55,861 nucleotides of DNA. Origin: Nanobdellota archaeon (GTDB lineage Archaea; Nanobdellota; Nanobdellia; Pacearchaeales; GW2011-AR1). Positions within the stretch are counted from its first letter, which is position 1, and every line of letters begins with the position of its first letter. Below are positions 13,432 through 40,326 of this stretch, in pieces. The position numbers were made by a program, and so were the translations under genes. The notes under the pieces were generated by a model. The model was not told the origin of the DNA, made no database searches, and saw only the letters and a list, made by a program, of their open reading frames with translations. The stretch lies in assembly GCA_027364705.1 (NCBI GenBank), contig DAHXOU010000029.1, forward strand, positions 1-55,861. The letters run 5' to 3'.

Positions 13432-13525
13432 TTCTATTGGATAATTTGTTTCTTTTTAAGATTTCTGTAGTACAGATATATCTCTATAAATAAATATTTT
13501 TAAACAATTTTCTTTATCTAGCTTT
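13432..13525. promoter_or_regulatory. Divergent promoter region with two TATA-box candidates
   Basis: TTTTTAAG (13453-13460, read on the minus strand as CTTAAAAA) lies about 26 nt from the start at 13431. TTTTTAAAC (13497-13505) lies about 25 nt from the ATG at 13526. Confidence 0.45.
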
Positions 13526-14740
13526 ATGAAAGAAAGGAAGAAAAAAATTGTATTCTATTCTGCAACTACTCCAACCGTCTTTTTGTATAAACTAGGAATA
13601 TTATTTAAAAAAAATAATTATGAGACAATTTTATTTACAACCTGCGAGAAGAATAGATTTAATATGGAATTTTATAAAAATGCCTTTAACAGAGTAATCT
13701 GTTCTAATTTTCATTTTGTTAAACCTTCTCTAAAAAATATTTTTTACTTTTGTAAAAGAACTCCTGACCTAACAAATTTTTTATTTTTTTTAAAACGAAT
13801 AAAACCTTATGCAGTAATCGGGGTGGCTGGAAGTAATTGGCAATTAAGACTTGTTCACAAATATTTTTTTAAAAAATATCCATTTATCTATCTGCCTTAT
13901 GATATTCTGTCTCATTTTTTTAATTCTCTAAATGAAGCATTAGAACATACAAAATTAGACGAATTAACTGCAGAAAAATATTGTTTTGAAAACTCTGACG
14001 GAATTCTCCATAAAGGATCTCCAGAAGAATTATCTTTTATTTCTGGGAGAATTTTTGATAATATAAATATCGTTAAGGATACTCTCAGTTTCATGCCCTA
14101 TTGTTCAGAGGAATATAATGTTCCAATAAATAAAAATAAACTTTCAAAAAAAGATAAAGAATTTCATACTGTCTATGTTGGGGGTTTTTTACATGACCCA
14201 TTATCAAAAAAATCTAATCAGGATTCTATTAAAAAATTATTAGACCAAAATATACACGTCCATGTATATGCTCTTTCTGACCATTGTTCTAAAGAGGAAG
14301 AAGAAAATGCAATAAATGATTTCTTTGGAATCTTTATACAAAATAAATATTTTCACTTACATCACTCATTAGAACCAAAAGAGTTGATTAAAGAAATATC
14401 CCAATATGATTTTGGATTATTTTTTGCCTATGATTATTATCAAAGAACAGGTATAGAATTAAATCATAGCACGGGAAATAAAATTTCTAGCTACTTAGAA
14501 GCAGGTCTTCCAATCATTTATGATTCTAGGCTTTTATTTGTCGATCGATTAATGAAACCTTATAATTTAAACATCTATCTAAATGAAGAAAATATCCTGA
14601 ATACTCTTCAAAAAATAAATTATACTGCCCTTGTTAAACAAGTTGAAAAAATGAGATCTGATTTTGATATGGATAGAAATTTTTCAAGACTAAATGAGTT
14701 TATAGAAACTATTTGTAAATCTGTTAAAAAAAGCCCATAA
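13526..14740 (+). CDS. Hypothetical protein, possibly a divergent GT-B-fold glycosyltransferase
   Basis: 404 aa; the long ORF is convincing as a gene. The only hints to function are weak: VYVGGF...GNKISSYLEAGLPIIY, reminiscent of GT-B C-terminal domains. First gene of the 11-gene operon. Confidence 0.35.
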   Translation: MKERKKKIVFYSATTPTVFLYKLGILFKKNNYETILFTTCEKNRFNMEFYKNAFNRVICSNFHFVKPSLKNIFYFCKRTPDLTNFLFFLKRIKPYAVIGVAGSNWQLRLVHKYFFKKYPFIYLPYDILSHFFNSLNEALEHTKLDELTAEKYCFENSDGILHKGSPEELSFISGRIFDNINIVKDTLSFMPYCSEEYNVPINKNKLSKKDKEFHTVYVGGFLHDPLSKKSNQDSIKKLLDQNIHVHVYALSDHCSKEEEENAINDFFGIFIQNKYFHLHHSLEPKELIKEISQYDFGLFFAYDYYQRTGIELNHSTGNKISSYLEAGLPIIYDSRLLFVDRLMKPYNLNIYLNEENILNTLQKINYTALVKQVEKMRSDFDMDRNFSRLNEFIETICKSVKKSP

Positions 14741-14767
14741 TCCATCTATATATGGGACCTTCATAAA

Positions 14768-14780
14768 TTATTTAAATTAA
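14768..14780 (+). promoter_or_regulatory. TATA-box candidate
   Basis: TTATTTAAATTAA centred about 24 nt upstream of the ATG at 14798. Confidence 0.4.
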
Positions 14781-14797
14781 TCTCACAAATTTTTTTT

Positions 14798-16051
14798 ATG
14801 AAGATAGTATTAACAACTCTCCCTAAAGAAGGGAGTGCATTCAATTGGGTAACTCCAAAATATTTTTATCCTGATGATTCCAAATTTGTTCCCTTAGGTT
14901 TACTTTCTTTAGCATCTAATCTACCTTCTGAGCATGAGATTACTGTTTTGGATCCAAATAGTTTTTGTTGGTCTATCGATAAAACAATAGAAGAAATTGA
15001 AAAACAAAGACCAGATATTTTAGGTATCTCTGCTGTAACACTTAAGGCATACTCTATGGTTAAAATATTAAAAGAAACTTCGGCTCCTTACAAAATTGTT
15101 GGCGGTCCGCATACAACGAACAATTCTTCATCTATTCTAAATCAGGGAGCAGATGCAACTTTCATTGGACAACTAGCAGATTTAGAATTTGTAGATGCTA
15201 TAAAAAATAAACCCAAAGGAATTGTCTATTGTAATACTAACCTTAATCAAATAAAATTTCCAAACAGAAAGTTTATCGACATAAATTTTTATTATCCTTC
15301 ATCTATATTATTTTCAGCAAATAATAGGATGTCTACCTTTTCTAGTGTTGGTTGTCCACATCATTGTAGTTTTTGCGATGTTCAAACAAAAAAAATTCAA
15401 AGAAAATCTCCAGAATCTCTTTTAGAAGAAATGATCTATTTGCAGAAAATAGGTGCTAAGAGTATTCATCTAATGGATGATAACTTTAATACTAATGAAT
15501 CTTATTTAGAATCAATTTGTTCTGAGATGGATAAAAAAGAATTTTATTCTGAATGGAGTGGGAGAGGTCAGGCAAAAATAAGTCCGCATATAGCTAATAT
15601 GTTAAGTGAACGAAATTTTAAGAGAATTCATGTGGGGTTTGAATCTCTCTCGGATAAAACTTTGAAATTTTTTAATAAACCACAAAACTTTTCTCAGATA
15701 CAAAAATTTTGTGAGACTACAAATAAATATGGAATAGACATCCTGGGATATTTTATTATTGGTGCTCCTACAGAAACCGAAGAAGATAAACATACAATGG
15801 CACAAAAGATAAATGATCTCGGGATAAAATATCCTTATATTAACATTTTACAGCCTCTGCCAAATACCGAATATTATTCTTTCTTATTAAATGAAGGAAT
15901 CTACAAAAAAGATTATTGGGCAGAATATATTTCAAATCCTGTGCCAGATTTTATGTTACCTTTTCCTTACGGAGAAAAAAAGTGGCAAGAAGATGCAGAA
16001 TTTGTAAACGAGATGATAAACTTGTTTAAAGAAAAAAATGAAAATGAATAA
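14798..16051 (+). CDS. B12-binding-domain (class B) radical SAM enzyme
   Basis: 417 aa. N-terminal PLGLLSLASNL...IVGGPHTT, followed by SSVGCPHHCSFC. 14-nt overlap with the downstream GT9 gene. Confidence 0.85.
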   Translation: MKIVLTTLPKEGSAFNWVTPKYFYPDDSKFVPLGLLSLASNLPSEHEITVLDPNSFCWSIDKTIEEIEKQRPDILGISAVTLKAYSMVKILKETSAPYKIVGGPHTTNNSSSILNQGADATFIGQLADLEFVDAIKNKPKGIVYCNTNLNQIKFPNRKFIDINFYYPSSILFSANNRMSTFSSVGCPHHCSFCDVQTKKIQRKSPESLLEEMIYLQKIGAKSIHLMDDNFNTNESYLESICSEMDKKEFYSEWSGRGQAKISPHIANMLSERNFKRIHVGFESLSDKTLKFFNKPQNFSQIQKFCETTNKYGIDILGYFIIGAPTETEEDKHTMAQKINDLGIKYPYINILQPLPNTEYYSFLLNEGIYKKDYWAEYISNPVPDFMLPFPYGEKKWQEDAEFVNEMINLFKEKNENE

Positions 16052-16988
16052 AATTTTAATCATTAAAACAGGTTATTCTGAACTATTAGACAAAGAAAAT
16101 AATTCCCGCAAAGTTAGTCTTGGAGATATTTTAAGAACTACTTGTTTATTGCATTTATTCAAAAAAGATAATGTATCTTGGGTAACCGATGAATCTGCTT
16201 TTCCTCTTCTAGAAAAAAATCCTTATATTCATCGAGTTCTTCCATATGATTTAACAACAACTTTTCAGTTAATGGCCGAAGAATTTGATACCGTGATTAA
16301 TCTTGAAAAAACCCCTGGAATTTGTGCTCTTTCAGATAGAATTCGTGCAAGACGGAATCGGTATGGTTTTACTTTCAATAGTCAATCTGGAACTGCAGAA
16401 CCTTATGCTATGGCTTCGAACATATTAACTGTATGTGCAGACCCCCATCTTAAAAAAACAAATAAAAAAACTGCACAGGAACTTTTATTTGAAACAGTTG
16501 GAGAAACATGGAACAAAGAAGAATATGTTTTGGGATATACTCCAAAAACCGATGAAATATTTGATGTAGGTCTTAATACTCAAGTTGGGCAAAAATGGCC
16601 AACTAAATCGTGGCCTAGTAATCACTGGGATAAATTAGAAAGTTTATTATCGGAGAATAAAATAAAAACAAGTAGACAGGAAAAAAATAACCCCCTTATT
16701 CTCGGAGATTTGTTTAAATATATTGATTGGATAAATTCTTGTAAAGTTCTAGTTAGCAATGATAGTCTTGGATTGCACTTGGGAATTGCTCTGAAAAAAA
16801 AAGTTTTTGGGTTATTTGGTCCAACTCCTCATTTGGAAGTTTATTTTTATGGCCGAGGTAAAGCAATCCTACCCGAACCAGTTCCTTCCTGTCTGCCTTG
16901 TTTTGAAGGAAAATGTCTGAGGGAAAGAAATTGTTTGGAAGATATATCTCCAAATACAATCTATAATGAGGTGTTAAAAATAATTTAA
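16038..16988 (+). CDS. Glycosyltransferase family 9 (heptosyltransferase-family) protein
   Basis: 316 aa. ILIIKTG...GDILRTTCL N-terminus, VSNDSLGLHLGIALKKKVFGLFGPT donor-domain motif, and the C-terminal Cys motif CLPCFEGKCLRERNCLEDISP typical of GT9. The start may be at 16044. Confidence 0.75.
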   Translation: MKMNKILIIKTGYSELLDKENNSRKVSLGDILRTTCLLHLFKKDNVSWVTDESAFPLLEKNPYIHRVLPYDLTTTFQLMAEEFDTVINLEKTPGICALSDRIRARRNRYGFTFNSQSGTAEPYAMASNILTVCADPHLKKTNKKTAQELLFETVGETWNKEEYVLGYTPKTDEIFDVGLNTQVGQKWPTKSWPSNHWDKLESLLSENKIKTSRQEKNNPLILGDLFKYIDWINSCKVLVSNDSLGLHLGIALKKKVFGLFGPTPHLEVYFYGRGKAILPEPVPSCLPCFEGKCLRERNCLEDISPNTIYNEVLKII

Positions 16989-17010
16989 TTATTATTCATT
17001 AAATAATATC

Positions 17011-18849
17011 ATGGAACAAAATAAAAACAATATTAAGGATTACGATAACAATGATATTTTCTGGAAAAATTTTTCCAAAATCCAAAATAATCCTTATCTT
17101 GTTGGCGACTTAAATGATTTCAAATGTTTATTTGTTTTTCCAACGCCATCTGATGATTTTTCAAAAGACTATTATCCTACTCCTCTTGGGACTATGGCCT
17201 CTTTGGTTCGAATGAATAAAGGTCACGCAAAAATAATCACACCTGACGTAAAAAATTATAATCCTCTCGATTTTGCAGGTTATGATTTAATTTGTTTTTA
17301 TCCAATGATTGCTTCTTTTTCTCAGACAATGGATCTTCCGCAAAAAATTAAGAAAGATTTTTCCAATTCAAAAATTTGTTTATTTAACTCAGACCAACAT
17401 CAACATGAGATGATGTTATGTGCACCAAAAGCAAAAAATCTAGCAGAGAAGATTATGCAAAAATATTCTTCTTTAGATTATATCTTAGTAGGAGAATCTG
17501 AAAAATCTTTTATCAATCTCTGTAAAAAAATAAAATTAAAAGAGAATGATTTGGAAACTATTCCTTCTTGCATTTATAGAACTGAAGGAAAAATAAAAGT
17601 GTCTAATCAACCCATCATTCCGGTGGAATTTAAATTTTTACCATTTCCTTCTAGGGATTATTTGGAAGAAAAAATTTCCCCCGAAGGAATAAATTCACTT
17701 TCTCCAAGAATACATTCTAGTCGAGGATGTACTTCACAATGTTCTTTTTGTGCTGAATCTGCTGCAAATATAACTCTCGACGGAAGAAAACAACCCGTTT
17801 TAAACAGAGATATAAATCAGTTTATTGATGAAATAGAATTATTGCAAAAAAATTACGGTGCAGTTTTCTTTAATATTATGGATAGTTCTTTTGAAGATCC
17901 TGCAAAAGAAGGAATCATACGTATGAAAAAATTTTCTGAGGGCATATTAGAAAGAAAAATAGATGCTTCATTTAAGATTCATTTAAGGGCAGAGACAATA
18001 GAAAATCTCGACAATAATTTTCTTGATTTGCTTAAACTTTCTGGAGTAGACATAATCGGTGTCGGGGTTGAATCTGCTCTTGAAGAAGAATTAAAATCTT
18101 ACAAAAAAAGAACAACTGTCAAAAAAAGTATTTGCTCTATGAATAAGTTAGAAGAGCAACACGATTTTTTTGCTATTGTTGGATATATCATGTTTACACC
18201 TGAATTAAAATCTGAAGATTTTCTAACTAAAGTTGAATTCTTAAAAGGAATTAATCGTGGATGGGATTATATGAACCTATCTCATAGTATGCTTATCTTT
18301 CCTGGGAGCGAGTATCATAATCTTTTACAAAAAAGAGGATTAGAAGCAGAACATGATGAATTAGCTTTTTTAATCCCTTACAACTTTAGTGAAGAGAATA
18401 CAAGAAAAATTGCAGATGAAATGAGTAACCTCAAAAAAAAATGTCCTGAAGTGATAAAATTGAATAATGCATTATATGACGCAAAAAATTTGGTAAGTAG
18501 ATATTCTAATAAGATGAATAAACACTTATGGGAAAAAGAATCGGTCTTTTTAAATTTTAAAAAAAATTTATCTGAAATTTTACTAGTTACGGAATCAAAA
18601 TATTCTTCATATACTCACGATCTTTTTGAAGTTATCCAATCATCTTCTTCAGATAATCAAAAAGATTTAATCTTTGAAAAAAATATTTCTCCTTATATTC
18701 CGCCTCTATTAAATAAAACTACAAATTTAATCAACAATGTTCTTGAGGATTTTGAATCTTTTGGGCTTTCAACAAACAAACTTTATCTTAAAACATGGTT
18801 ATCTTTGATAAACACTCAGAAAAATATCGTCGGAGGGAAAAATGTCTGA
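17011..18849 (+). CDS. B12-binding-domain (class B) radical SAM enzyme with a long C-terminal extension
   Basis: 612 aa. SSRGCTSQCSFC after a Rossmann-like N-terminal domain. I recognise no motif in the last 150 aa or so. Confidence 0.8.
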   Translation: MEQNKNNIKDYDNNDIFWKNFSKIQNNPYLVGDLNDFKCLFVFPTPSDDFSKDYYPTPLGTMASLVRMNKGHAKIITPDVKNYNPLDFAGYDLICFYPMIASFSQTMDLPQKIKKDFSNSKICLFNSDQHQHEMMLCAPKAKNLAEKIMQKYSSLDYILVGESEKSFINLCKKIKLKENDLETIPSCIYRTEGKIKVSNQPIIPVEFKFLPFPSRDYLEEKISPEGINSLSPRIHSSRGCTSQCSFCAESAANITLDGRKQPVLNRDINQFIDEIELLQKNYGAVFFNIMDSSFEDPAKEGIIRMKKFSEGILERKIDASFKIHLRAETIENLDNNFLDLLKLSGVDIIGVGVESALEEELKSYKKRTTVKKSICSMNKLEEQHDFFAIVGYIMFTPELKSEDFLTKVEFLKGINRGWDYMNLSHSMLIFPGSEYHNLLQKRGLEAEHDELAFLIPYNFSEENTRKIADEMSNLKKKCPEVIKLNNALYDAKNLVSRYSNKMNKHLWEKESVFLNFKKNLSEILLVTESKYSSYTHDLFEVIQSSSSDNQKDLIFEKNISPYIPPLLNKTTNLINNVLEDFESFGLSTNKLYLKTWLSLINTQKNIVGGKNV

Positions 18850-19924
18850 ATATATTTTTAATTCCCCTATAAGTTTAGGTAACACTTTAATAAAAAATAG
18901 AATTGCATTTCCTCCTCTTGGATGCAATTGGGCAGATCAAGGAGGTTTTGTTAACGAAAAAATAATAAATCATTATCGGGAAATTTCTCGAGGAGGAAGT
19001 GGAATGGTTATTGTAGAAGGTACTTCTGTTTCTCCAGAGGGAAATGGAACCACAAATGGAATTGGATTGTATAATGATTCTTATTTACCTGGAATAAAAT
19101 TAATTCTGTCTGAATTAAAAAAGGAAAAATGTTTTTCTTCTATTCAATTACTCCATTCGGGGGGGCAAGCAAATCCTAATTTTACAGGACATCAACCTAT
19201 CTCTCCTTCTGGAACAACTTGCAATGCTACAGGATTCCCTTCTCATGAAATGAATCTTTCAGAAATAGAAGAGATAAAAAATAAATTTGTTTATTCAGCA
19301 AAACTCGCTGCATCAGCAGGGTTTGATGCTGTGGAATTACATTTAGCTCACGGTTATTTATTACATCAATTTCTTTCCCCTTATACAAATCATAGAAACG
19401 ATAAATACGGGGGAAATTTAGAAAACAGGGCAAGACTAATTACGGATATCATCCACGAGATTAAAATTCAAAATCCTTCTTTATTATTGGGAGCAAGAAT
19501 TTCGGGAGAAGATTATATACCTTCTGGAATAAATAACGAGATGAATAAAACTCTCTTGCCTTTACTTGAAAATTCAGGTATAAATTATTTTAGCGTTACT
19601 GCTGGAATTTATGATACTTCTAAATTAAAGCATGAAGCAATGATGAGGGGAGATTTTTTTAAATATAGTAAAGAGATAAAAGAAATTGTTAATGTTCCTG
19701 TTATTGGTGTGGGAAAGATACTTGATTTACTTACTGCAGAAAAACATTTATACGAACAATCTTGCGATATTGTTGCAATTGGTCGTGGTATGTTAGCAGA
19801 TCCATATATGTTAAAAAAATTTAATCGAAAAGAAGATTATAATCGATGTTCAGAATGTAATCATTGTGCCTATCTGAGGTTTGGTAAAAAAAGTGTAACT
19901 TGTCCTGTTCGAGGATTAGAATAA
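18842..19924 (+). CDS. Old-Yellow-Enzyme-family FMN oxidoreductase ending in an Fe-S-type Cys motif
   Basis: 360 aa. ELHLAHGYLLHQFLSPYTNHRNDKYGG OYE signature. C-terminal CSECNHCAYLRFGKKSVTC (C-x2-C-x2-C-x11-C, nt 19847-19903). GGAGGG Shine-Dalgarno-like site 4-5 nt before the ATG. Confidence 0.85.
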   Translation: MSEYIFNSPISLGNTLIKNRIAFPPLGCNWADQGGFVNEKIINHYREISRGGSGMVIVEGTSVSPEGNGTTNGIGLYNDSYLPGIKLILSELKKEKCFSSIQLLHSGGQANPNFTGHQPISPSGTTCNATGFPSHEMNLSEIEEIKNKFVYSAKLAASAGFDAVELHLAHGYLLHQFLSPYTNHRNDKYGGNLENRARLITDIIHEIKIQNPSLLLGARISGEDYIPSGINNEMNKTLLPLLENSGINYFSVTAGIYDTSKLKHEAMMRGDFFKYSKEIKEIVNVPVIGVGKILDLLTAEKHLYEQSCDIVAIGRGMLADPYMLKKFNRKEDYNRCSECNHCAYLRFGKKSVTCPVRGLE

Positions 19925-19925
19925 A

Positions 19926-20888
19926 ATGTCTAAGAAGGTTTTAATTTTGGGTGGAGCGAGATTCCATGGATTTCAGTTAGCCAAAAAATTATCTTCAGAG
20001 GGAAATTTGGTTTATGTTTTAAATAGGGGAAATTTTCGAGATAAATATCCTTCTTCAATCAACTTCCTAAAAGGAGATAGAGAAGACCCTCTTTTTCTCA
20101 AAGAAATATTTTCTCGCAATTATTTTGATTGCATTTTTGATAATAATGCTTATCTCCCTCGGCAGATAGGATTAATTTCTGATTACATTAAGAATAAATG
20201 TAATCATTATATTTTTACCAGTAGCGCTTCTGTTTATCTTAAAAATTTTTCAGACCATTTATTGACTGAGAAAGAAGCTACAGGGATATCAAATGGAAAT
20301 TATAATCCTTTTTTTGAACAATATGCTTTGAATAAATTTGAATGTGAAAATAAAATTAAAAAAATAGGGGGAAAAAAATACACTATCCTTCGCACCCCAA
20401 ATGTTTTTGGTGAGGGAGACTTTTCTGGAAAACTTATTTTTTTTAATACCCGAATAGAAGACGGAGGAAATATTCTTTTAGAAAAAGAAGTGAATCAAGT
20501 CGGAATAATCTATGTTAATGATCTCGTAAATATTTTAGCTAAAACTATGAACTGTGAAAGATGTTTTGAAAAAACACTAAATATCTCCTGCCCTACTTTT
20601 ATCAATAATTTTTTCAGTGAAATATATGGGGAAAAGTGTTTAGAAAAATTAACTTTCATGTCTTCTAAAGAAATGTGGGGAAATAATTATTCTCTACCTT
20701 TTGAGTGGAATCCTCCTCTTGAAACTTCTCTCATTCAATCATTAATTGGAGAAACGAATTACACTCCTATTTCTGAGTGGGGAAAAAAAACATTAGTTTG
20801 GGAGAAAAATAATCTCGGGGATATTAAAAGACCCGAATTTTCTAATCGGGGAAAAGAATTAAACTTAATTAAAAAATACAATGGTTGA
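19926..20888 (+). CDS. NAD-dependent epimerase/dehydratase (extended SDR)
   Basis: 320 aa. Rossmann N-terminus LILGGARFHGFQLAKKL, TSSASVY, and a catalytic YALNK (YxxxK). Confidence 0.65.
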   Translation: MSKKVLILGGARFHGFQLAKKLSSEGNLVYVLNRGNFRDKYPSSINFLKGDREDPLFLKEIFSRNYFDCIFDNNAYLPRQIGLISDYIKNKCNHYIFTSSASVYLKNFSDHLLTEKEATGISNGNYNPFFEQYALNKFECENKIKKIGGKKYTILRTPNVFGEGDFSGKLIFFNTRIEDGGNILLEKEVNQVGIIYVNDLVNILAKTMNCERCFEKTLNISCPTFINNFFSEIYGEKCLEKLTFMSSKEMWGNNYSLPFEWNPPLETSLIQSLIGETNYTPISEWGKKTLVWEKNNLGDIKRPEFSNRGKELNLIKKYNG

Positions 20889-21762
20889 AAATATAATTCT
20901 AAGAACTTCTTACTCCCAAATTCCAGGGGGGAAATTAAAATCTAATTTCGGGGATTTACTTCGGGTTTCTGTTTTAACAGAATGTATTGGAAAAGATTTT
21001 TTATGGCTGACGGATAAAAGATCCATAAATCTATTAAAATATTTTATAGACAAAGAAAAAATTATTTCTATCGACGATATAGAACCAGATAAAAATTTTA
21101 ATGCAATCAACATATACAATTTAGATAATTATATTTCAACTCCCGATTTATTTAATCGTATTTCTGGGAATTGGAGAGGATACATACCAAATAAAGAAAT
21201 TTTAAAACCAGAAAATAAATTAATAGAAGCTATCTCTCCCTACAAACCGCATAGAATAAATAAAAGTTTGCAAGAATTAATTGTTGAAGGATTGGGTTTT
21301 ACATGGAAAGGACAAGATTACCCGTTTCCTAAAACAGATATAACTGAATTTGTAGATATCGGATTAAACTGGTCTATGCCTTCAGACTGGAAATCTAAAA
21401 CTTGGCCACGAGAATATTGGAACGAACTTGAAGAAATATCAAAAAAAGATTATACTATTTCTTGGCAAGAGGGATTAGATAATATTGATGATTACGTCCA
21501 TTGGTTGTCTTCTTGTAAAATAATAATCACAGGAGAAACTCTCGGACTGCATTTAGCATCTGCTTTAAGAAAAAAAGTTTTAGCTATCCTTGGACCGATG
21601 AAAAATACTGAATTTCCTTATAATCGGTTGACAAGAATCTATCCTGCTGAAAGAGATTGTATGCCTTGTGATTCTCCAATTTGTAATCAAGGAGAAAATT
21701 GTTTAAACGAAATAAAACCGCAACAAATTAAGAAGATTATCGATGGTATACTTAGTACCTAA
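20881..21762 (+). CDS. GT9-like glycosyltransferase (shorter paralogue)
   Basis: 293 aa. GDLLRVSVL N-terminal motif, ITGETLGLHLASALRKKVLAILGP, and CMPCDSPICNQGENCLNEIKP. Parallels the genes at 16038 and 36857. Confidence 0.6.
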   Translation: MVENIILRTSYSQIPGGKLKSNFGDLLRVSVLTECIGKDFLWLTDKRSINLLKYFIDKEKIISIDDIEPDKNFNAINIYNLDNYISTPDLFNRISGNWRGYIPNKEILKPENKLIEAISPYKPHRINKSLQELIVEGLGFTWKGQDYPFPKTDITEFVDIGLNWSMPSDWKSKTWPREYWNELEEISKKDYTISWQEGLDNIDDYVHWLSSCKIIITGETLGLHLASALRKKVLAILGPMKNTEFPYNRLTRIYPAERDCMPCDSPICNQGENCLNEIKPQQIKKIIDGILST

Positions 21763-21765
21763 ATA

Positions 21766-21778
21766 TTTTTAAATAAAA
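21766..21778 (+). promoter_or_regulatory. TATA-box candidate
   Basis: TTTTTAAATAAAA centred about 25 nt upstream of the ATG at 21795. Confidence 0.4.
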
Positions 21779-21794
21779 TCTTTAATATACTTTT

Positions 21795-22847
21795 ATGGGA
21801 TCTATCCATCTAGATAGCAATAAACTAGCGCTTCATCCCGAAAGAGTTTCTGAGTGGAAAAATAAGGGAGATTGTTTTCCAATTTATGTTGAAATCGGAT
21901 TGACTAATAGATGTAATCATAATTGTATTTTTTGTGGATTAGATTGGGCAAGAGGAACAAATACTTTGGAAACCTCCGTTTTATTAAATAATCTTAATGA
22001 TATGAAAAATTCTGGAATTAAATCAGTCTGTTTTTCTGGTGCAGGAGAACCTTTATTGCATAAAGATTTTTCTCTGTTGGTTAAAAAAACAAAAGAATCA
22101 GGGATTGATGTTTCATTTTCTACTAATGCTGTTTTATTCAACGAAAAAATTTGTGAAGAAACATTACCTTATGCTTCTTGGATAAGATTTAGTATTGATG
22201 CTGCTTATCCAAAAACACATTCGATAATTCACAGAACTTCAGAAAAAGATTTTCCGAAGATATTAAATAATTTAGTTAAATCTGTTGAAATTAAAAAAAA
22301 GAATAATTATGCAACAACGCTGGGTGTTCAATTTTTGTTATTAGAAGAAAATAAAACTGAGTTATTAGAATTTGTAAAATTATTCCAAAAAATCGGGGTC
22401 GATAATGTCCAACTTAAACCTTACTCTAAGAATCCTAACAGTAATAATGCACTCTTCCAAGATTATGGTTCCTATTTGGAATTTGAAAAAGATTTAACAA
22501 ATTTATCTAGTGATACTTTTCAAATTTTTTTTAGAAAAAATAGAATAAACTCCGTCTCTTCCGAACCAAGTTATGATAATTGTTTAGGATTGCCTTTTTT
22601 TACAATAATAAATGAAAAAGGAGATATTGCTCCTTGTCATCTTTATTATTCTGTTCCTGATTTTTCTTATGGAAATTTATACAAAAATAATTTTTCAGAA
22701 ATATGGGCGGGAGATAAAAGAAAAGAAATAGTAGAAGAAATATCTCGAAAAGGAATTAATCATTGTAAAAAAGGATGCCGACTAGATAGTTCTAATTCCT
22801 ATCTTCATAGATTAAAAAATCCAGAACCTCATGATAATTTTATATAA
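21795..22847 (+). CDS. Radical SAM enzyme with a twitch/SPASM-like C-terminus
   Basis: 350 aa. LTNRCNHNCIFC plus SGAGEPL. C-terminal C-x14-GDIAPC and HCKKGC. Confidence 0.8.
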   Translation: MGSIHLDSNKLALHPERVSEWKNKGDCFPIYVEIGLTNRCNHNCIFCGLDWARGTNTLETSVLLNNLNDMKNSGIKSVCFSGAGEPLLHKDFSLLVKKTKESGIDVSFSTNAVLFNEKICEETLPYASWIRFSIDAAYPKTHSIIHRTSEKDFPKILNNLVKSVEIKKKNNYATTLGVQFLLLEENKTELLEFVKLFQKIGVDNVQLKPYSKNPNSNNALFQDYGSYLEFEKDLTNLSSDTFQIFFRKNRINSVSSEPSYDNCLGLPFFTIINEKGDIAPCHLYYSVPDFSYGNLYKNNFSEIWAGDKRKEIVEEISRKGINHCKKGCRLDSSNSYLHRLKNPEPHDNFI

Positions 22848-23476
22848 TGGAAATAAAAATAACTGTTAAAGAACTTATAGAATTTGAGAATAAAATTGCT
22901 CATTTATGGGAAGATAAAAAAATACCTTATCCAATTCATCTATCTGGGGGAAATGAGAAACAATTGATAGAAATATTTGGTGAGATAAACAAGGGAGATT
23001 ATATTTTTTCTACCCATCGTTCTCATTACCATTATCTTCTAGCAGGAGGTTCTCCTGAAAAATTAGAAAAAATTATTCTCGAAGGAAATAGTATGCATGT
23101 TTTTGATAAAGAACTGAATTTTTTAACTTCTGCAATTGTATCCGGTACACCAACAATAGCTACAGGAGTTGCTTTGGCATTGAAATTAAAAAAAAGTGAA
23201 AAAAAGGTTTGGTGTTTTGTCGGAGACGGAGCAGAAGATGAAGGGCATTTTTATGAAGCAGTTAGATATGTTGATGGACATGATCTACCCTGCACATTCA
23301 TTTTAGAAGACAATGATCGTTCTGTTGAAACTCCGAGGGAAGTTAGATATGGAAAATCCCGAATTAAATGGCCTGATTGTGTAAAGATATATAATTATAA
23401 AATTACTTACCCTCATGTTGGAACAGGAAAGTGGGTAGATTTTTCTGGAACTAAAGCAGGAGGTTCTTCTTTCTAA
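22847..23476 (+). CDS. Short E1-alpha-like thiamine-diphosphate-binding subunit
   Basis: 209 aa. FVGDGAEDEGHFYEAVRYVDGHDLPCTFILEDNDRSV matches the GDG...NN-type TPP motif of 2-oxoacid dehydrogenase E1 alpha, with EDND in place of ENN. TAATG coupling at both ends. Confidence 0.7.
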   Translation: MEIKITVKELIEFENKIAHLWEDKKIPYPIHLSGGNEKQLIEIFGEINKGDYIFSTHRSHYHYLLAGGSPEKLEKIILEGNSMHVFDKELNFLTSAIVSGTPTIATGVALALKLKKSEKKVWCFVGDGAEDEGHFYEAVRYVDGHDLPCTFILEDNDRSVETPREVRYGKSRIKWPDCVKIYNYKITYPHVGTGKWVDFSGTKAGGSSF

Positions 23477-24000
23477 TGAAATATAAAGATGCAATTAAAA
23501 AATCTATGGAAATGTTAGCAGAAGAAGATAATACTCTCTTTTTGGGTTATAATATCTCTTTTGGTTCTTATGCATATGGAACATTAAAAGACATTCCTTC
23601 TTGGAAAAAAATAGAAACTCCTGTCGCAGAAAATTTAATGATGGGTTTAGCAATGGGATTGGCTCTTGAAGGGTATCGTCCGATAGTATTCTTTGAGCGA
23701 CACGATTTTATGTTAAATTCATTAGATGCAATTGTTAATCATCTCGACAAAATCCCTGAAATGTCCAAAGGACAATTTAAAATGCCCGTTATAATAAGGG
23801 CTGCAATTGGTTCCAAATTTCCTTTAAATCCTGGACCACAGCATGTTCAGGACTTTTCAAAAACATTTAGAGGAATAATAAAATTTCCGATATATGATCC
23901 ACAAAATTCCGAGGAAATTCTTTCGGTTTATCATACTATTAAAAACTCAACTAACCCTTCTATGATTATAGAAAAAAAAGAGTTGTATGAGATAGAATAA
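23476..24000 (+). CDS. Short E1-beta-like pyrimidine-binding subunit; the usual C-terminal domain is missing
   Basis: 174 aa. The AENLMMGLAMGLALEGYRPIVFF motif is typical of the E1 beta / transketolase Pyr domain. The ORF ends where the E1 beta C-terminal domain would begin. Confidence 0.7.
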   Translation: MKYKDAIKKSMEMLAEEDNTLFLGYNISFGSYAYGTLKDIPSWKKIETPVAENLMMGLAMGLALEGYRPIVFFERHDFMLNSLDAIVNHLDKIPEMSKGQFKMPVIIRAAIGSKFPLNPGPQHVQDFSKTFRGIIKFPIYDPQNSEEILSVYHTIKNSTNPSMIIEKKELYEIE

Positions 24001-24001
24001 A

Positions 24002-24880
24002 ATGAACTCCATAAAAATCCCAGAAGAATTTAACTATATATCTTCTTTTTTGACTTTTAGATGTAATCTTTCCTGCCCCTATTGTCTCAATGCTTTTGAA
24101 GATGACTTTTCAAGAAAAAGAAATGAACTTTCTGGAGAAGAATGGGTGGAAAATCTAAATAGAATTGAGACAAATGTTCCAATAACTTTTACTGGAGGAG
24201 AACCTCTTGTGCATCAAGATTTTATTAAAATAATAAAACAACTAAAACCTTCTTTGAGTATAGACATTTTAACAAATCTTTATTCCAATACCGAAAAGTA
24301 TAAGCTGACCTTAGACACTTTTGTTTCTGAAATTAATCCCTCGAGAATAAATAAAAATTCCCCTTATGCTTCTATTCGTGTTTCTTATCATCCTGATCAA
24401 ATGAATCCCGCAAAATTAATCGATGACGTCAATCTTCTGAAAAATGCTGGATTTAATGTAGGAATATGGGCTGTTTTATATCCTGGCCCGAATCAATTAT
24501 CTGCGATTAATCAAATGCAATTTCGATGTAAGGACAATGGAATTGATTTTCGATTGAAAGAATTTACAGGAAAATATAAAGATGAACTTTATGGTAATTA
24601 TTCAAAATATCCAGATTCGATATTTATGGAAAAAACAAAAGAAGTTTTATGCAGAACTCCAGAATTATTAATTTCTCCTAACGGAGATATTTACAAATGT
24701 CACAGAGATTTATACTCTCAAGAATTCTCCATCGGGAATATAACCGATAAAAATTTTCAAGCAGAATATAAATTTAGAAAATGCAATAAATATGGTCAAT
24801 GTCATCCTTGCGATGTAAAACTTAAAACAAATCACAATCAAGAATTAGGTTATACTACCGTGGATATAATTAAATCTTAA
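24002..24880 (+). CDS. Radical SAM enzyme with a SPASM-like C-terminus
   Basis: 292 aa. LTFRCNLSCPYC plus TGGEPL. C-terminal C-x10-GDIYKC and CNKYGQCHPC. Confidence 0.8.
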   Translation: MNSIKIPEEFNYISSFLTFRCNLSCPYCLNAFEDDFSRKRNELSGEEWVENLNRIETNVPITFTGGEPLVHQDFIKIIKQLKPSLSIDILTNLYSNTEKYKLTLDTFVSEINPSRINKNSPYASIRVSYHPDQMNPAKLIDDVNLLKNAGFNVGIWAVLYPGPNQLSAINQMQFRCKDNGIDFRLKEFTGKYKDELYGNYSKYPDSIFMEKTKEVLCRTPELLISPNGDIYKCHRDLYSQEFSIGNITDKNFQAEYKFRKCNKYGQCHPCDVKLKTNHNQELGYTTVDIIKS

Positions 24881-25637: not shown

Positions 25638-25638
25638 C

Positions 25639-32081: not shown

Positions 32082-32168
32082 TTGCTCAGAAAAATAGTTC
32101 CCTTTAAAATAATTTATATAATTCCAAAACACACAAATTTTTATAAATATTTTTCATATTTCCCCCTT
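32082..32168. promoter_or_regulatory. Divergent promoter region with two TATA-box candidates
   Basis: TTTAAAATAA (32103-32112) lies about 26 nt from the minus-strand ATG at 32081. TTTTTATAAATA (32138-32149) lies about 25 nt from the ATG at 32169. Confidence 0.45.
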
Positions 32169-40229: not shown

Positions 40230-40326
40230 TTATTTAACGGGAAAATTAGACTATAAAAGCATTATTGCACAATTTACTATTCTTCAGAATAATAACAAAT
40301 AAAAAGCATATTAAACATTTATACGC
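40230..40326. promoter_or_regulatory. Divergent promoter region with two TATA-box candidates
   Basis: TATAAAA (40253-40259, read on the minus strand as TTTTATA) lies about 27 nt from the start at 40229. AAATAAAAA (40297-40305) lies about 26 nt from the GTG at 40327. Confidence 0.4.

What the first reader, a model, noticed from the sequence alone, without database searches (positions are those of the whole stretch)
13526..24880. Gap-free eleven-gene core operon mixes B12-rSAM, GT9, flavoenzyme, SDR, SPASM-rSAM and a split TPP enzyme
Seen in sequence: eleven same-strand genes cover 11.3 kb. Their junctions are overlaps (14, 8, 8 nt), TAATG or ATGA couplings, or gaps of no more than 57 nt.

The order is: GT-B-like orphan, B12-rSAM, GT9, B12-rSAM, OYE with an Fe-S motif, SDR, GT9-like, SPASM-rSAM, E1alpha-like, E1beta-like, SPASM-rSAM.

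Inference: this looks like a self-contained route. A nucleotide sugar would be oxidised or dehydrated (SDR), an enone reduced (OYE) and a C2 unit added (TPP pair). The sugar would then be radically modified (rSAMs) and transferred (GT9).

This gene combination does not match any sugar pathway I can name.
Basis: partly seen in the sequence, partly recalled or inferred. Interest (0 to 1): 0.8.

Follow-up and report, generated by a model that had tools for sequence, protein, structure and literature searches.

The report
Radical-SAM plus thiamine sugar-modifying gene cassettes
The eleven genes are real and tightly packed, but they are four separately promoted, exchangeable cassettes within a large surface-glycan locus of a tiny (DPANN) archaeon; their conserved heart is an uncharacterised pairing of a radical-SAM enzyme with a stripped-down thiamine enzyme, which also occurs in bacteria and hundreds of phages, often next to the genes that make ADP-heptose.

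Summary
Eleven same-strand ORFs lie at 13526-24880, with the stated junctions and domain calls.

The "self-contained operon" reading holds only in part.

- **Transcription units.** An archaeal TATA-like box (TTTAWW at -27) precedes only O1, O2, O4 and O8. That implies four units: O1 | O2-O3 | O4-O7 | O8-O11.
- **Cassettes.** These borders match cassettes that move independently in related loci. The nearest relative has O1 directly followed by O8-O11. One contig carries 9 of the 11 genes in a different order.
- **Conserved core.** The core is O8-O11: a DesII/BlsE/viperin-like twitch/SPASM radical-SAM enzyme, a minimal E1-like TPP enzyme (alpha 209 aa, beta 174 aa, no E2-binding domain) and a second small rSAM.
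- **Distribution.** Relatives occur in DPANN archaea, several bacterial phyla and at least 558 viral contigs.
- **Partner swap.** In cyanobacterial and phage versions the rSAM is replaced by a Zn-alcohol dehydrogenase. Only one of about 180 loci has both. The TPP genes are then fused and sit inside GmhA/HldE heptose operons.
- **Fusions.** rSAM-TPP(PYR) fusion proteins exist on three contigs.
- **Local context.** The window itself encodes HldE and GmhB homologues, five GT9-like proteins and AglB.

Best reading: these are modification and transfer cassettes for an ADP-heptose-based glycan. A sugar hydroxyl is oxidised, then TPP-dependent C-C chemistry follows. The chemistry is inferred and the module is uncharacterised.

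The parts
13499..13504 (+). TATA-like box (TTTAAA) at -27 of O1; start of unit 1
   Evidence: TTTAWW peaks at -27..-29 for 19 of 47 window genes, against about 1 expected (P ~8e-20).
13526..14740 (+). O1: GT-B fold glycosyltransferase (Gtf3/BshA-like), a DPANN-restricted family
   Evidence: No Pfam hit above threshold. All 152 homologues are named DPANN or unnamed, and many have a precomputed Gtf3_C hit. AF2 pLDDT 93. The Foldseek top 50 are all GT-B glycosyltransferases or GT-B-fold relatives. It travels with O8-O11 in L010, L005, L138 and L141.
14771..14776 (+). TATA-like box (TTTAAA) at -27 of O2; start of unit 2
14798..16051 (+). O2: class B (B12-binding domain) radical SAM enzyme
   Evidence: Pfam B12-binding 34.4 bits (cutoff 32.1) and Radical_SAM 69.5 bits. 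Best NCBIfam hit is HpnJ, far below cutoff. Best PDB hits are 9ccb and AprD4. Orthologues at 51-61% id in L002, L005, L007, L019 and L078.
16038..16988 (+). O3: GT9-family (heptosyltransferase-like) GT-B glycosyltransferase
   Evidence: Pfam Glyco_transf_9 38.7 bits, residues 227-294 only. Heptosyltransferase equivalogs are far below cutoff. Orthologues at 52-65% id in 13 loci.
16984..16989 (+). TATA-like box (TTTAAT) at -27 of O4, overlapping the O3 stop codon; start of unit 3
17011..18849 (+). O4: 612-aa class-B-like radical SAM enzyme
   Evidence: Pfam Radical_SAM only. NCBIfam alignments to BchE, HpnJ and ArsL extend into the N-terminal domain. Best PDB hit is OxsB, 1.3e-7. Contiguous with O5/SDR/O7 in L007/L119 and L019.
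18842..19924 (+). O5: OYE-type FMN plus [4Fe-4S] reductase domain without FAD/NAD(P)H domains
   Evidence: Oxidored_FMN 215 bits. Aligns to the N-terminal 355 residues of 640-aa FadH/BaiCD-type models. The CxxCxxC-x11-C motif is conserved. The L007 orthologue is fused to a classical SDR.
19926..20888 (+). O6: divergent extended SDR (GxxGxxG, YxxxK present)
   Evidence: Pfam Epimerase E 1.9e-12. Only weak N-terminal similarity to GalE in the PDB. No orthologue in other loci; a classical SDR occupies this position in L007 and L019.
20881..21762 (+). O7: GT9-like glycosyltransferase
   Evidence: Pfam GT9 27.9 bits (cutoff 22), C-terminal region. Orthologues at 53% id in L007/L119 and L019.
21768..21773 (+). 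TATA-like box (TTTAAA) at -27 of O8; start of unit 4
21795..22847 (+). O8: twitch/partial-SPASM radical SAM enzyme, DesII/BlsE/viperin/anSME-like; conserved partner of the TPP pair
   Evidence: Pfam Radical_SAM plus SPASM. Invariant C40/C44/C47 plus C263, C281, C324 and C328. AF2 pLDDT 91. Foldseek: DesII TM up to 0.71, then SuiB, BlsE, viperin, anSME, BtrN. An O8-family rSAM is adjacent to the TPP pair in 71 of 101 metagenome loci and 47 of 80 viral loci. Fused to a TPP PYR domain in P0261/P0265/P0362.
22847..23476 (+). O9: minimal E1alpha-like TPP (PP) subunit, 209 aa
   Evidence: E1_dh 70 bits. GDG-x26-N TPP motif. Aligns to positions 16-179 of the 315-position PDH E1alpha model. Family profile against PDB: E1alpha 1e-15, DXS 2.5e-5, split TK 1e-3. 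1380 homologues at up to 83% id (the listed best 120 are 67-83% identical). 88 clusters at E<=1e-30.
23476..24000 (+). O10: minimal E1beta-like TPP (PYR) subunit, 174 aa, no Transketolase_C/E2-binding domain
   Evidence: Transket_pyr 39.6 bits. Aligns to positions 5-178 of the 327-position E1beta model. Candidate catalytic Glu52 (PVAEN) is >=95% conserved in 62 orthologues.
24002..24880 (+). O11: small MoaA-like radical SAM enzyme with a Cys-rich C-terminus
   Evidence: Radical_SAM 38.6 bits; SPASM 20.4 bits, just below cutoff. C21/C25/C28 plus five conserved C-terminal Cys. Orthologues at 39-65% id next to the TPP module in 20 loci.
24870..25658 (-). Convergent CE4-type polysaccharide deacetylase, a conserved neighbour of O11
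   Evidence: Pfam Polysacc_deac_1. 74% id and the same convergent position in L010, 68% id in L138.
38752..39294 (+). GmhB-like heptose 1,7-bisphosphate phosphatase (context: ADP-heptose supply)
   Evidence: TIGR00213 157.4 bits, above the 149.6 cutoff.
39288..40229 (-). HldE kinase-domain homologue (heptose-7-P kinase)
   Evidence: rfaE_dom_I 317 bits (cutoff 345), E 1e-94.
41921..42406 (+). HldE adenylyltransferase-domain homologue
   Evidence: rfaE_dom_II 141.6 bits (cutoff 181.5), E 1.5e-41.

Best explanation
The block is a string of four co-directional, separately promoted cassettes: O1 | O2-O3 | O4-O7 | O8-O11. It sits within the surface-glycan (AglB-dependent) locus of a DPANN archaeon. 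The cassettes modify and transfer a nucleotide-activated sugar, most likely ADP-heptose.

The conserved engine is O8-O11.
- Shown: O8-family rSAMs and a mini TPP pair are near-obligate neighbours and are sometimes fused.
- Shown: in oxic lineages and phages the rSAM is replaced by a Zn-alcohol dehydrogenase, and the TPP gene then sits inside GmhA/HldE heptose operons.
- Inferred: O8 (or the ADH) oxidises a sugar hydroxyl to a carbonyl. This would be an O2- and NAD-independent route analogous to BtrN versus NeoA, or to DesII dehydrogenation.
- Inferred: the minimal E1-like TPP enzyme O9/O10 then performs C-C chemistry at that carbonyl. My preferred version is addition of a pyruvate-derived C2 unit, giving a C-branched or chain-extended heptose, as Plm8/9 and AviB1/2 do on 4-keto-hexoses. 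The alternative is ketol cleavage of an oxidised C6-C7 side chain.
- Inferred: O11 tailors the product, and the GT-B O1 transfers it.
- Inferred: O2-O3 and O4-O7 are accessory rSAM-plus-GT9 cassettes that add further modified residues. O4-O7 would combine a class-B-like rSAM (C-methylation or rearrangement) with an FMN/Fe-S ene-reductase and an SDR.
For: **Anatomy and promoters.**

**Cassette behaviour.**
- L010/L110: O1-O8-O9-O10-O11-deacetylase, with O2-O7 absent.
- L005: O1-O2-O3-O8-O9-O10.
- L007/L119 and L019: O4-O5-SDR-O7 stay contiguous next to the TPP pair.
- L138: O1-GT9-B12rSAM-SPASM-TKalpha-TKbeta-O8-NUDIX-O11-deacetylase.

**rSAM-TPP coupling.**
- 71 of 101 metagenome loci and 47 of 80 viral loci have an O8-family rSAM beside the TPP genes.
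- In phages the rSAM lies between the beta and alpha genes.
- PYR-rSAM fusion proteins occur on three contigs.

**ADH swap.** 19 plus 30 loci have a Zn-ADH instead. None has both within the immediate neighbourhood; L084 has both slightly further apart.

**Heptose link.**
- Cyanophages S-SM2 and P-TIM68 carry ADH-TPPalphabeta-kinase-epimerase-adenylyltransferase-GmhA.
- Prochlorococcus L008 has TPR-GT9, ADH, TPPalphabeta, GmhB and HldE.
- 19 of the 33 viral loci that lack the rSAM (30 with a Zn-ADH, 3 with neither) carry heptose genes.
- DPANN loci L007, L013, L017 and L094 have HldE-like genes adjacent.
- The window has HldE- and GmhB-like genes and five GT9-like proteins.

**O8 fold.** It is closest to rSAMs acting on NDP-sugars, nucleosides or nucleotides, and to rSAM dehydrogenases.

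**TPP enzyme.** The catalytic motifs are intact and the E2-binding parts are missing.

**Precedent.** E1alpha/beta-type C2 branching of keto-sugars is documented in PMC4802897.
Against: - No substrate or product is known, and every chemical step is inferred.
- Heptose genes are adjacent in only 10 of 48 cellular loci and in none of the 36 freshwater-phage-type (rSAM) loci. Many of these contigs are short.
- No GmhA is present in the window.
- O8's fold neighbours include peptide maturases (SuiB, SkfB, CteB) at scores equal to DesII.
- The ADH/rSAM exclusivity could reflect different reactions in different lineages rather than one step.
- A TK-like mini pair can replace the E1-like pair in the same context. 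This leaves ketol transfer as likely as pyruvate-derived acylation.
- TATA-like motifs do not exclude read-through transcripts.
- All NCBIfam equivalog matches are far below cutoff.
Confidence: 0.5

Rival explanations
1. First reader's model. A single self-contained operon encodes one linear route on a nucleotide sugar: SDR oxidation/dehydration, OYE enone reduction, TPP C2 addition, rSAM modification, GT9 transfer.
For: All eleven genes are co-directional and 99% coding. 9 of the 11 recur together on L019. OYE and an SDR are fused in L007, so those two do cooperate.
Against: TATA-like boxes sit before O2, O4 and O8. The nearest relative lacks O2-O7 but keeps O1 and O8-O11. The TPP pair occurs in about 180 loci, almost always without OYE/SDR. 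No activating enzyme lies in the block.
Confidence: 0.1
2. The mini TPP enzyme works at the sugar-phosphate level. It would be a dedicated transketolase- or DXS-like enzyme that builds a (possibly unusual) heptulose phosphate. That product would feed GmhA/HldE, with the ADH or rSAM preparing the acceptor or donor.
For: The TPP gene sits directly beside the kinase and GmhA genes in phages and in L084. A TK-like mini pair can substitute for it. The window lacks GmhA and any obvious source of sedoheptulose-7-P. An APH-kinase-TPPalpha fusion exists.
Against: The family profile is much closer to E1alpha than to TK or DXS. Cyanobacterial hosts already have transketolase (background knowledge, not tested here). 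The partner rSAM most resembles enzymes that bind nucleotide-linked substrates. A NUDIX gene and GTs are embedded in the DPANN modules.
Confidence: 0.17
3. O8 (and O11) are maturases. They would post-translationally modify the TPP enzyme or a peptide, as anSME or SPASM RiPP maturases do, rather than act on a sugar.
For: The top NCBIfam hit of O8 is a 'tungsten cofactor oxidoreductase rSAM maturase' (107 bits, cutoff 380). SuiB, SkfB, CteB and anSME are among the best fold matches. The tight coupling and the fusion with a PYR domain fit this reading.
Against: A Zn-ADH, which is a small-molecule dehydrogenase, replaces the rSAM in 49 loci. The gap-free block leaves no room for a precursor peptide gene. 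DesII, BlsE and viperin match equally well.
Confidence: 0.08
4. There is no common pathway. The run is a chance accretion of unrelated glycan genes in a hypervariable locus.
For: Gene order is shuffled between relatives. The locus behaves like an O-antigen-type cassette array.
Against: The same gene families recur around the TPP pair across archaea and bacteria: 9 of 11 in L019, 7 of 11 in L005 and 6 of 11 in a planctomycete. Sub-blocks keep their internal order. Fusion proteins exist.
Confidence: 0.07

Closest known systems
E1alpha/E1beta-like pairs that attach a pyruvate-derived two-carbon branch to NDP-4-keto-sugars (Plm8/Plm9 of paulomycin, AviB1/AviB2 of avilamycin; functionally also YerE of yersiniose)
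   Same: A heteromeric E1-type TPP enzyme is encoded in a sugar-modification/glycosyltransferase cluster with no E2/E3. A carbonyl-generating enzyme is encoded next to it (PMC4802897).
   Different: O9/O10 are roughly half-size (209 + 174 aa) and lack the C-terminal parts of both subunits. The keto group would come from a radical SAM enzyme or a Zn-ADH, not a 4,6-dehydratase. The context points to ADP-heptose/GT9 rather than dTDP-deoxyhexoses. Orthology could not be tested because no reference sequences were available.
Radical SAM enzymes acting on sugar nucleotides and cyclitols: DesII, BtrN, BlsE, viperin
   Same: O8 has the CxxxCxxC core and one auxiliary-cluster Cys set (twitch-like). Its model superposes on DesII (TM up to 0.71), BlsE, viperin and BtrN. 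Replacement by a Zn-ADH parallels BtrN (rSAM) versus NeoA (Zn-ADH) in 2-deoxystreptamine pathways (background knowledge).
   Different: Sequence identity is only 14-19%. O8 is always coupled to, or fused with, a TPP enzyme, which none of those enzymes is.
ADP-L-glycero-beta-D-manno-heptose pathway with GT9 heptosyltransferases (GmhA, HldE, GmhB, HldD; WaaC/WaaF)
   Same: The window encodes HldE kinase- and adenylyltransferase-domain homologues, a GmhB homologue and five GT9-like proteins. Phage and cyanobacterial relatives of O9/O10 sit inside GmhA-HldE operons.
   Different: The host is archaeal (no LPS) and the locus contains AglB. GmhA is missing from the window. The GT9 matches are partial. 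There is an extra dehydrogenase-plus-TPP step that is unknown in the canonical pathway.
Heterotetrameric 2-oxoacid / acetoin dehydrogenase E1 components
   Same: The alpha subunit has the GDG...N TPP/Mg motif and the HL..G.E and R.H motifs. The beta subunit has the PYR-domain Glu.
   Different: There is no Transketolase_C/E2-binding domain, the alpha subunit is truncated, and no E2/E3/lipoyl genes are present. Scores are far below the equivalog cutoffs (90 vs 394 bits).
Cassette-variable surface-polysaccharide loci (O-antigen, capsule and archaeal agl clusters)
   Same: A flippase, an oligosaccharyltransferase, many GTs and nucleotide-sugar genes are present. Cassettes are swapped between close relatives: window vs L010 and L138.
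   Different: The density of radical SAM genes is exceptional (12 of 48 genes). rSAM-TPP modules are present.

Membership tests
Single operon (one transcription unit) | Co-directional genes with short or overlapping junctions | tested here: met
   Junctions range from -14 to +57 nt, and the span is 99% coding.
Single operon (one transcription unit) | No internal promoters | tested here: not met
   TTTAWW lies at exactly -27 before O1, O2, O4 and O8 and before none of the other seven genes. The motif is enriched window-wide at -27..-29 (19 of 47 genes, P ~8e-20). Transcripts themselves were not tested.
2-oxoacid dehydrogenase E1 (alpha2beta2) | TPP/Mg motif GDG-x(24-27)-N in alpha and a catalytic Glu in the beta PYR domain | tested here: met
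   GDGAEDEG...EDND is invariant. E52 of O10 is >=95% conserved.
2-oxoacid dehydrogenase E1 (alpha2beta2) | Beta C-terminal (Transketolase_C) domain, full-length alpha, and E2/E3 partners | tested here: not met
   O10 covers positions 5-178 of the 327-position model and O9 covers 16-179 of 315. Scores of 90 and 74 bits compare with cutoffs of 394 and 321. No E2/E3 genes are in the window.
Sugar C2-branching E1alpha/beta pairs (AviB1/B2, Plm8/9) | E1alpha/beta homologues encoded in a nucleotide-sugar/GT cluster without E2/E3 | tested here: met
   Context; precedent in PMC4802897.
Sugar C2-branching E1alpha/beta pairs (AviB1/B2, Plm8/9) | Sequence orthology to characterised members, and pyruvate-dependent acylation of an NDP-keto-sugar | not testable with these tools
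   No reference sequences were reachable and no biochemistry is available.
Radical SAM, SPASM/twitch subgroup (O8, O11) | CxxxCxxC plus C-terminal auxiliary-cluster cysteines | tested here: met
   O8: C40/C44/C47 plus four invariant Cys; SPASM 32.2 bits, above cutoff 21.5. O11: C21/C25/C28 plus five conserved Cys; SPASM 20.4 bits, just below cutoff.
DesII/BtrN-type sugar-oxidising rSAM (O8) | Specific structural and sequence similarity, and an NDP-sugar or cyclitol substrate | tested here: inconclusive
   DesII TM 0.65-0.71 and BlsE 0.65, but peptide maturases score alike. By sequence, only BlsE is found, at 2e-7.
Class B cobalamin-dependent rSAM (O2, O4) | N-terminal B12-binding Rossmann domain plus rSAM core | tested here: inconclusive
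   O2 meets Pfam B12-binding (34.4 vs 32.1 bits). O4 has no Pfam B12 hit but aligns with class-B families across its N-terminal domain and weakly with OxsB. Cobalamin binding cannot be tested.
GT9 heptosyltransferase (O3, O7) | Pfam GT9 domain above the gathering score | tested here: met
   38.7 and 27.9 bits against a cutoff of 22, but only the C-terminal ~65 residues align.
GT9 heptosyltransferase (O3, O7) | ADP-heptose donor; equivalog-level match to WaaC/WaaF/WaaQ | tested here: not met
   Best score is 33.5 bits against a cutoff of 134.6. Donor specificity cannot be tested.
FadH/BaiCD-type FMN-[4Fe-4S] OYE (O5) | OYE TIM barrel plus CxxCxxC-x11-C | tested here: met
   215 bits; the motif is present and conserved.
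FadH/BaiCD-type FMN-[4Fe-4S] OYE (O5) | C-terminal FAD and NAD(P)H domains | tested here: not met
   The protein is 360 aa and aligns only to positions 4-355 of 640-aa models.
ADP-heptose pathway in the window | HldE kinase, HldE adenylyltransferase and GmhB | tested here: met
   317/345, 141.6/181.5 and 157.4/149.6 bits (score/cutoff). Only GmhB passes a curated cutoff; the other two are strong but sub-cutoff.
ADP-heptose pathway in the window | GmhA (sedoheptulose-7-P isomerase) | tested here: not met
   None of the 48 ORFs scanned has a SIS-domain hit. The gene may lie elsewhere in the genome.

The most novel reading that the evidence does not exclude
The O8-type radical SAM enzyme and the minimal E1-like TPP enzyme form one two-cofactor catalyst; in some organisms they are literally one polypeptide. 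It would couple radical H-abstraction/oxidation with TPP carbanion chemistry to make or break a C-C bond on ADP-heptose, producing a higher-carbon or C-branched heptose that has not yet been described. This would be a new enzyme system. It would be spread between DPANN archaea, anaerobic bacteria and hundreds of phages, with an aerobic Zn-ADH version in cyanophages. Cells and viruses would use it to re-decorate surface glycans.
Probability: 0.2. Interest if true: 0.85.

Novelty: new variant of a known kind. Interest (0 to 1): 0.62.

Why it matters
**New sugar chemistry.** If correct, this defines a widespread and entirely uncharacterised step of sugar chemistry: a dehydrogenase (rSAM or Zn-ADH) plus a mini-E1 TPP enzyme bolted onto the ADP-heptose pathway. 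That would imply unknown heptose-derived sugars on the surfaces of DPANN archaea, anaerobic bacteria, marine cyanobacteria and cells infected by many phages.

**Tractable entry point.** It offers an experimentally easy system. The aerobic cyanophage S-SM2/P-TIM68 gene pair could be used to work out a reaction whose anaerobic radical-SAM version is hard to reconstitute.

**Phage auxiliary genes.** It flags an abundant phage auxiliary gene set (at least 558 IMG/VR contigs) that current annotation calls 'transketolase central region' or 'unknown'.

**Genome architecture.** It shows that DPANN glycan loci are built from separately promoted cassettes. Their borders can be read directly from leaderless-type TATA boxes.

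Tried and rejected
- **NCBIfam equivalogs for all eleven proteins:** nothing near the cutoffs, so no name could be transferred.
- **tRNA and Rfam scans of the window:** nothing found, including no TPP, cobalamin or SAM riboswitch.
- **Genome-contig scan with the TPPalpha alignment:** it saturated on short patterns and gave only 7 loci. A 38-nt degenerate DNA pattern against the metagenomes worked better.
- **PDB sequence searches:** uninformative for O6; for O4 only a weak OxsB match (1.3e-7).
- **PHROGs:** the fused TPPalphabeta is phrog_34187, 'unknown function'.
- **Literature searches:** seven searches found no description of an rSAM-TPP or ADH-TPP heptose module.
- **HpnI/J/K-like cyclitol formation:** considered because O2's best family hit is HpnJ and a deacetylase is adjacent. 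I did not adopt it, because 86 bits against a 578-bit cutoff is too weak.
- **Fe-S-containing OFOR-like TPP enzyme:** considered because O9 has three invariant Cys. I rejected it because LPC is also conserved in human E1alpha.
- **Organism name:** looking up the window's own proteins returned no name. The DPANN assignment rests on named homologues, AglB and the promoter architecture.

Full report
**1. The observation**

The ORF list shows eleven + strand ORFs from 13526 to 24880. 99% of the 11,355 nt is coding. This is the longest same-strand run in the 48-gene window; the next-longest run has 6 genes.

Pfam confirms the domain order.
- O2 has B12-binding plus Radical_SAM.
- O3 is GT9.
- O4 has Radical_SAM.
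- O5 has Oxidored_FMN.
- O6 is an Epimerase-type SDR.
- O7 is a weak GT9.
- O8 has Radical_SAM plus SPASM.
- O9 is E1_dh.
- O10 is Transket_pyr.
- O11 has Radical_SAM plus a borderline SPASM.

The "GT-B-like orphan" O1 has no Pfam hit in my scan. An AlphaFold model built on 40 homologues has pLDDT 93. Its 50 best PDB matches are all GT-B glycosyltransferases or GT-B-fold relatives such as SdgB, BshA, Gtf3 and plant UGTs; two are UDP-GlcNAc 2-epimerase chains.

O5 ends in CSECNHC-x11-C and stops there. It is therefore an FMN/[4Fe-4S] domain without the FAD/NAD(P)H domains of FadH or BaiCD.

No protein reaches an NCBIfam equivalog cutoff.

**2. Where it sits**

The whole window is 30% GC and is one giant glycan locus. 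It contains:
- SecDF and a Wzx-type flippase;
- twelve radical SAM genes;
- GT4, GT2, GT-C and GT9 enzymes;
- an NTP-transferase-GT4 fusion and a GT9-GT2 fusion;
- a GT4-family (AglH-like) phosphosugar transferase and a 935-aa AglB/STT3.

The window also encodes an HldE kinase-domain homologue (317 bits, cutoff 345), an HldE adenylyltransferase-domain homologue (141.6 bits, cutoff 181.5) and a GmhB homologue (157.4 bits, cutoff 149.6). These are most of the ADP-heptose pathway, but GmhA is missing.

The closest homologues of O1, O8 and O9 come from Pacearchaeota/Nanoarchaeota MAGs. With AglB and the promoter architecture described below, the organism is a DPANN archaeon.

**3. Four transcription units, not one**

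I looked at the 45 nt upstream of all 48 genes. TTTAWW starts at -29, -28 or -27 from the start codon in 19 of 47 genes. About one is expected from the window-wide frequency (P ~8e-20). This is the signature of archaeal TATA boxes driving leaderless or near-leaderless mRNAs.

Within the block, only O1, O2, O4 and O8 have the motif, all at exactly -27. These are precisely the genes that follow the 94-, 57-, 22- and 32-nt gaps. The sequence therefore predicts units O1 | O2-O3 | O4-O7 | O8-O11. Read-through cannot be excluded without transcript data.

**4. Comparative synteny gives the same borders**

I collected about 220 related loci:
- by exact-protein look-ups;
- by a genome scan;
- by a degenerate DNA pattern for the invariant GDGAEDEGHFYEA motif against the metagenomes;
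- by an IMG/VR scan.

I annotated them by BLASTP against the window's proteins.

The full 11-gene order is not found anywhere else.
- In the nearest relative (L010/L110; TPPalpha 83%, rSAM_b 80%, SPASM_d 85% identical) the arrangement is O1-O8-O9-O10-O11-deacetylase(-). O2-O7 are absent.
- L005 has O1-O2-O3-O8-O9-O10.
- L007/L119 have HldE-like-O4-O5~SDR-O7-O9-O10-rSAM-O8.
- L019 has O8-O9-O10-rSAM-O4-O5-SDR-O7-O11, with O3 and O2 nearby. That is 9 of the 11 genes in another order.
- L138 has flippase-O1-GT9-B12rSAM-SPASM-TKalpha-TKbeta-O8-NUDIX-O11-deacetylase(-).
- A planctomycete MAG contig (L002), which also carries sigma-70, FtsH and signal-peptidase genes, has six of the eleven.

The gene set is therefore clearly not a chance juxtaposition. 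It is, however, modular:
- O1 and O8-O11 (plus the convergent CE4 deacetylase) form a recurrent frame;
- O2/O3 are loosely linked accessories;
- O4-O5-SDR-O7 is a compact accessory cassette seen in three contexts.

In L007 the OYE is fused to a classical SDR. This supports OYE-SDR cooperation, although O6 itself is a different, extended SDR with no detectable orthologue elsewhere.

**5. The conserved heart: an rSAM plus a minimal TPP enzyme**

O9 has 1380 detectable homologues, at up to 83% identity (the listed best 120 are 67-83% identical). It also has 88 clusters (at 50% identity) with E<=1e-30.

O9 keeps the GDG-x26-N TPP/Mg motif and E1alpha-type HL..G.E and R.H motifs. O10 keeps the PYR-domain Glu, E52, in at least 95% of 62 orthologues.

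Both subunits are truncated. O9 aligns to positions 16-179 of the 315-position E1alpha model, and O10 to positions 5-178 of the 327-position E1beta model. There is no Transketolase_C/E2-binding domain and no E2 or E3 gene. This is not a dehydrogenase-complex E1. A family profile ranks PDB E1alpha (1e-15) well above DXS (2.5e-5) and split transketolase (1e-3).

An O8-family rSAM lies beside the TPP genes in 71 of 101 metagenome loci. These rSAMs fall into three subfamilies. The same holds in 47 of the 80 best viral loci.

In a large group of freshwater phage contigs the order is 254-aa protein, TPPbeta, rSAM, TPPalpha. These contigs carry tape-measure genes nearby, and the fused TPP form is PHROG 34187, 'unknown function'.

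Natural fusion proteins join a transketolase-type PYR domain to an O8-type rSAM (63% identical to O8). They occur on three independent contigs, preceded by the matching PP-subunit gene and followed by O11-like and O1-like genes.

O8 has the CxxxCxxC site plus four invariant C-terminal Cys, a twitch-like set for one auxiliary cluster. Its model has pLDDT 91. It superposes best on SuiB, DesII (TM up to 0.71), BlsE, SkfB, anSME, viperin, MoaA and BtrN. That list mixes peptide maturases with the rSAMs known to act on NDP-sugars, nucleosides and nucleotides, and with rSAM dehydrogenases.

**6. The Zn-ADH swap and the heptose link**

In 19 metagenome loci and 30 of the 80 viral loci, the neighbour of the TPP gene is a Zn-dependent medium-chain alcohol dehydrogenase rather than an rSAM. 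In most of these the TPP genes are fused. No locus has both partners in the immediate neighbourhood, and only L084 has both within a few genes.

The cultured cyanophages S-SM2 and P-TIM68 carry this order: Zn-ADH, TPPalphabeta ("transketolase central region-containing protein"), carbohydrate kinase (rfaE domain I-like), nucleotide-sugar epimerase, heptose-1-P adenylyltransferase, phosphoheptose isomerase.

A Prochlorococcus single-cell contig has TPR-GT9, Zn-ADH, TPPalphabeta, GmhB-like and HldE-like genes. 19 of the 33 viral loci that lack the rSAM (30 with a Zn-ADH, 3 with neither) have heptose genes adjacent. DPANN loci L007, L013, L017 and L094 have HldE-like genes next to the module.

The published note on a related cyanophage lists the heptose genes but not the TPP gene (PMC7378029). 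I found no paper that describes this module.

**7. Mechanism**

What is shown:
- the genes, motifs and promoters;
- the cassette structure;
- the rSAM-TPP coupling and fusion;
- the rSAM/ADH exclusivity;
- the recurrent association with heptose and GT9 genes.

What is inferred, in order:
1. The rSAM and the ADH are isofunctional, acting as anaerobic and aerobic dehydrogenases. BtrN versus NeoA is the textbook parallel (background knowledge). Either would convert a hydroxyl of a nucleotide-activated heptose into a carbonyl.
2. The mini-E1 TPP enzyme then acts on that carbonyl. I favour transfer of a pyruvate-derived C2 unit, giving a C-acetyl/hydroxyethyl-branched or chain-extended heptose. My reasons are that the enzyme is E1alpha-like and that E1alpha/beta pairs do exactly this in the paulomycin, avilamycin and kosinostatin sugar pathways (PMC4802897). 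The main alternative is transketolase-type cleavage of a 6-keto-7-hydroxy side chain. That alternative gains weight because a TK-like mini pair can take the place of O9/O10.
3. O11 tailors the product.
4. The co-travelling GT-B O1 transfers it.
5. O2-O3 and O4-O7 are additional cassettes that pair an rSAM with a GT9. O4's nearest solved relative is OxsB and O2's is AprD4, both sugar-acting enzymes, but the E-values (~1e-7) are weak.

I put about 0.5 on the overall picture. Within that, I put about 0.3 on C2 addition specifically.

**8. Comparison, novelty and verdict**

The locus belongs to the known kind "cassette-variable surface-glycan locus", and each enzyme superfamily in it is known.

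What is new:
- the minimal E1-like architecture;
- its near-obligate pairing, and occasional fusion, with a twitch/SPASM rSAM;
- the ADH-for-rSAM replacement;
- its attachment to the ADP-heptose pathway across archaea, bacteria and more than 550 viral contigs.

The idea of a C2-adding TPP step in a novel sugar route remains plausible. The claim of one self-contained, order-conserved 11-gene operon with a linear SDR-OYE-TPP-rSAM-GT9 flow is not supported.

I rate this a new variant of a known kind, with interest about 0.6. It would rank high for enzymologists and phage biologists if the two-cofactor C-C chemistry proves real, but at present it rests entirely on genomic inference.

Noticed in passing
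window, whole length (e.g. 3019, 4600, 6020, 10438, 26831, 27812, 36857, 43533 upstream regions): TTTAWW sits at -27 to -29 from the start codon of 19 of 47 genes, against about 1 expected. This implies leaderless or near-leaderless transcripts, and it allows transcription units across the whole locus to be read from the sequence.
   Followed up: yes
window 10438-12243 (+) and 12247-13431 (-): An ALS/YerE-like three-domain TPP enzyme lies next to a class I/II aminotransferase. The same pair occurs in L001 (aminotransferase 62% id). In the nearest relative L010 this position is taken by a transketolase-like mini TPP pair plus a NUDIX hydrolase. The locus may therefore hold a second, independent C-C-forming TPP step.
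   Followed up: partly
window, 12 genes (4600, 7688, 8844, 14798, 17011, 21795, 24002, 25639, 30570, 32082, 35276, 43533): A quarter of the genes in the window are radical SAM enzymes: six with class-B (B12-domain) architecture (B12-binding detected by Pfam in five, inferred for O4), five SPASM/twitch and one other. That is an unusual density for a glycan locus.
   Followed up: partly
L022-L134 (many) and L143-L206; e.g. L038 181-3159: Freshwater phage contigs carry GT2(561 aa)-254-aa unknown-TPPbeta-rSAM-TPPalpha just upstream of tail tape-measure genes. The 254-aa protein has no Pfam or PHROG hit. At least 558 IMG/VR contigs carry a TPPalpha relative.
   Followed up: partly
P0413, P0415 (relatives of O9): Some TPPalpha homologues are interrupted by inteins (Intein_splicing/Hint and LAGLIDADG domains) inserted near the TPP-binding motif.
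   Followed up: no
P0365 (552 aa): An APH-family phosphotransferase (kinase) domain is fused N-terminally to a TPPalpha homologue. This hints at a phosphorylated substrate or a kinase step coupled to the TPP enzyme.
   Followed up: no
L007 4856-6700: The orthologue of O5 (56% id) is fused to a classical short-chain dehydrogenase (614 aa). In the window the equivalent position is held by an unrelated extended SDR (O6).
   Followed up: partly
L012 12013-16873: Next to the rSAM-TPP module, a Pacearchaeota contig carries a CTP-transferase-PEP-mutase fusion, a phosphonopyruvate-decarboxylase-like TPP enzyme, an Fe-ADH and a nucleotidyltransferase. These suggest phosphonate decoration of the same glycan.
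   Followed up: no
window 33275-35164 (-), 36857-38755 (+): Two fusion proteins: nucleotidyltransferase-GT4 (629 aa) and GT9-GT2 (632 aa).
   Followed up: no
window 38752-42406: HldE (as split kinase and adenylyltransferase genes) and GmhB homologues are present, but no GmhA/SIS-domain gene is found anywhere in the 55.9-kb contig.
   Followed up: partly
window 46414-47718 (+): A 434-aa protein with no Pfam or NCBIfam hit lies in a five-gene unit between a methyltransferase and a type I phosphodiesterase/nucleotide pyrophosphatase homologue.
   Followed up: no
window 30570-32132 (-) / 32082-33284 (+): Two divergent rSAM ORFs overlap by 51 nt at their 5' ends and use GTG/TTG starts. The true starts are probably further in, since neither upstream region has the -27 TATA motif.
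   Followed up: no
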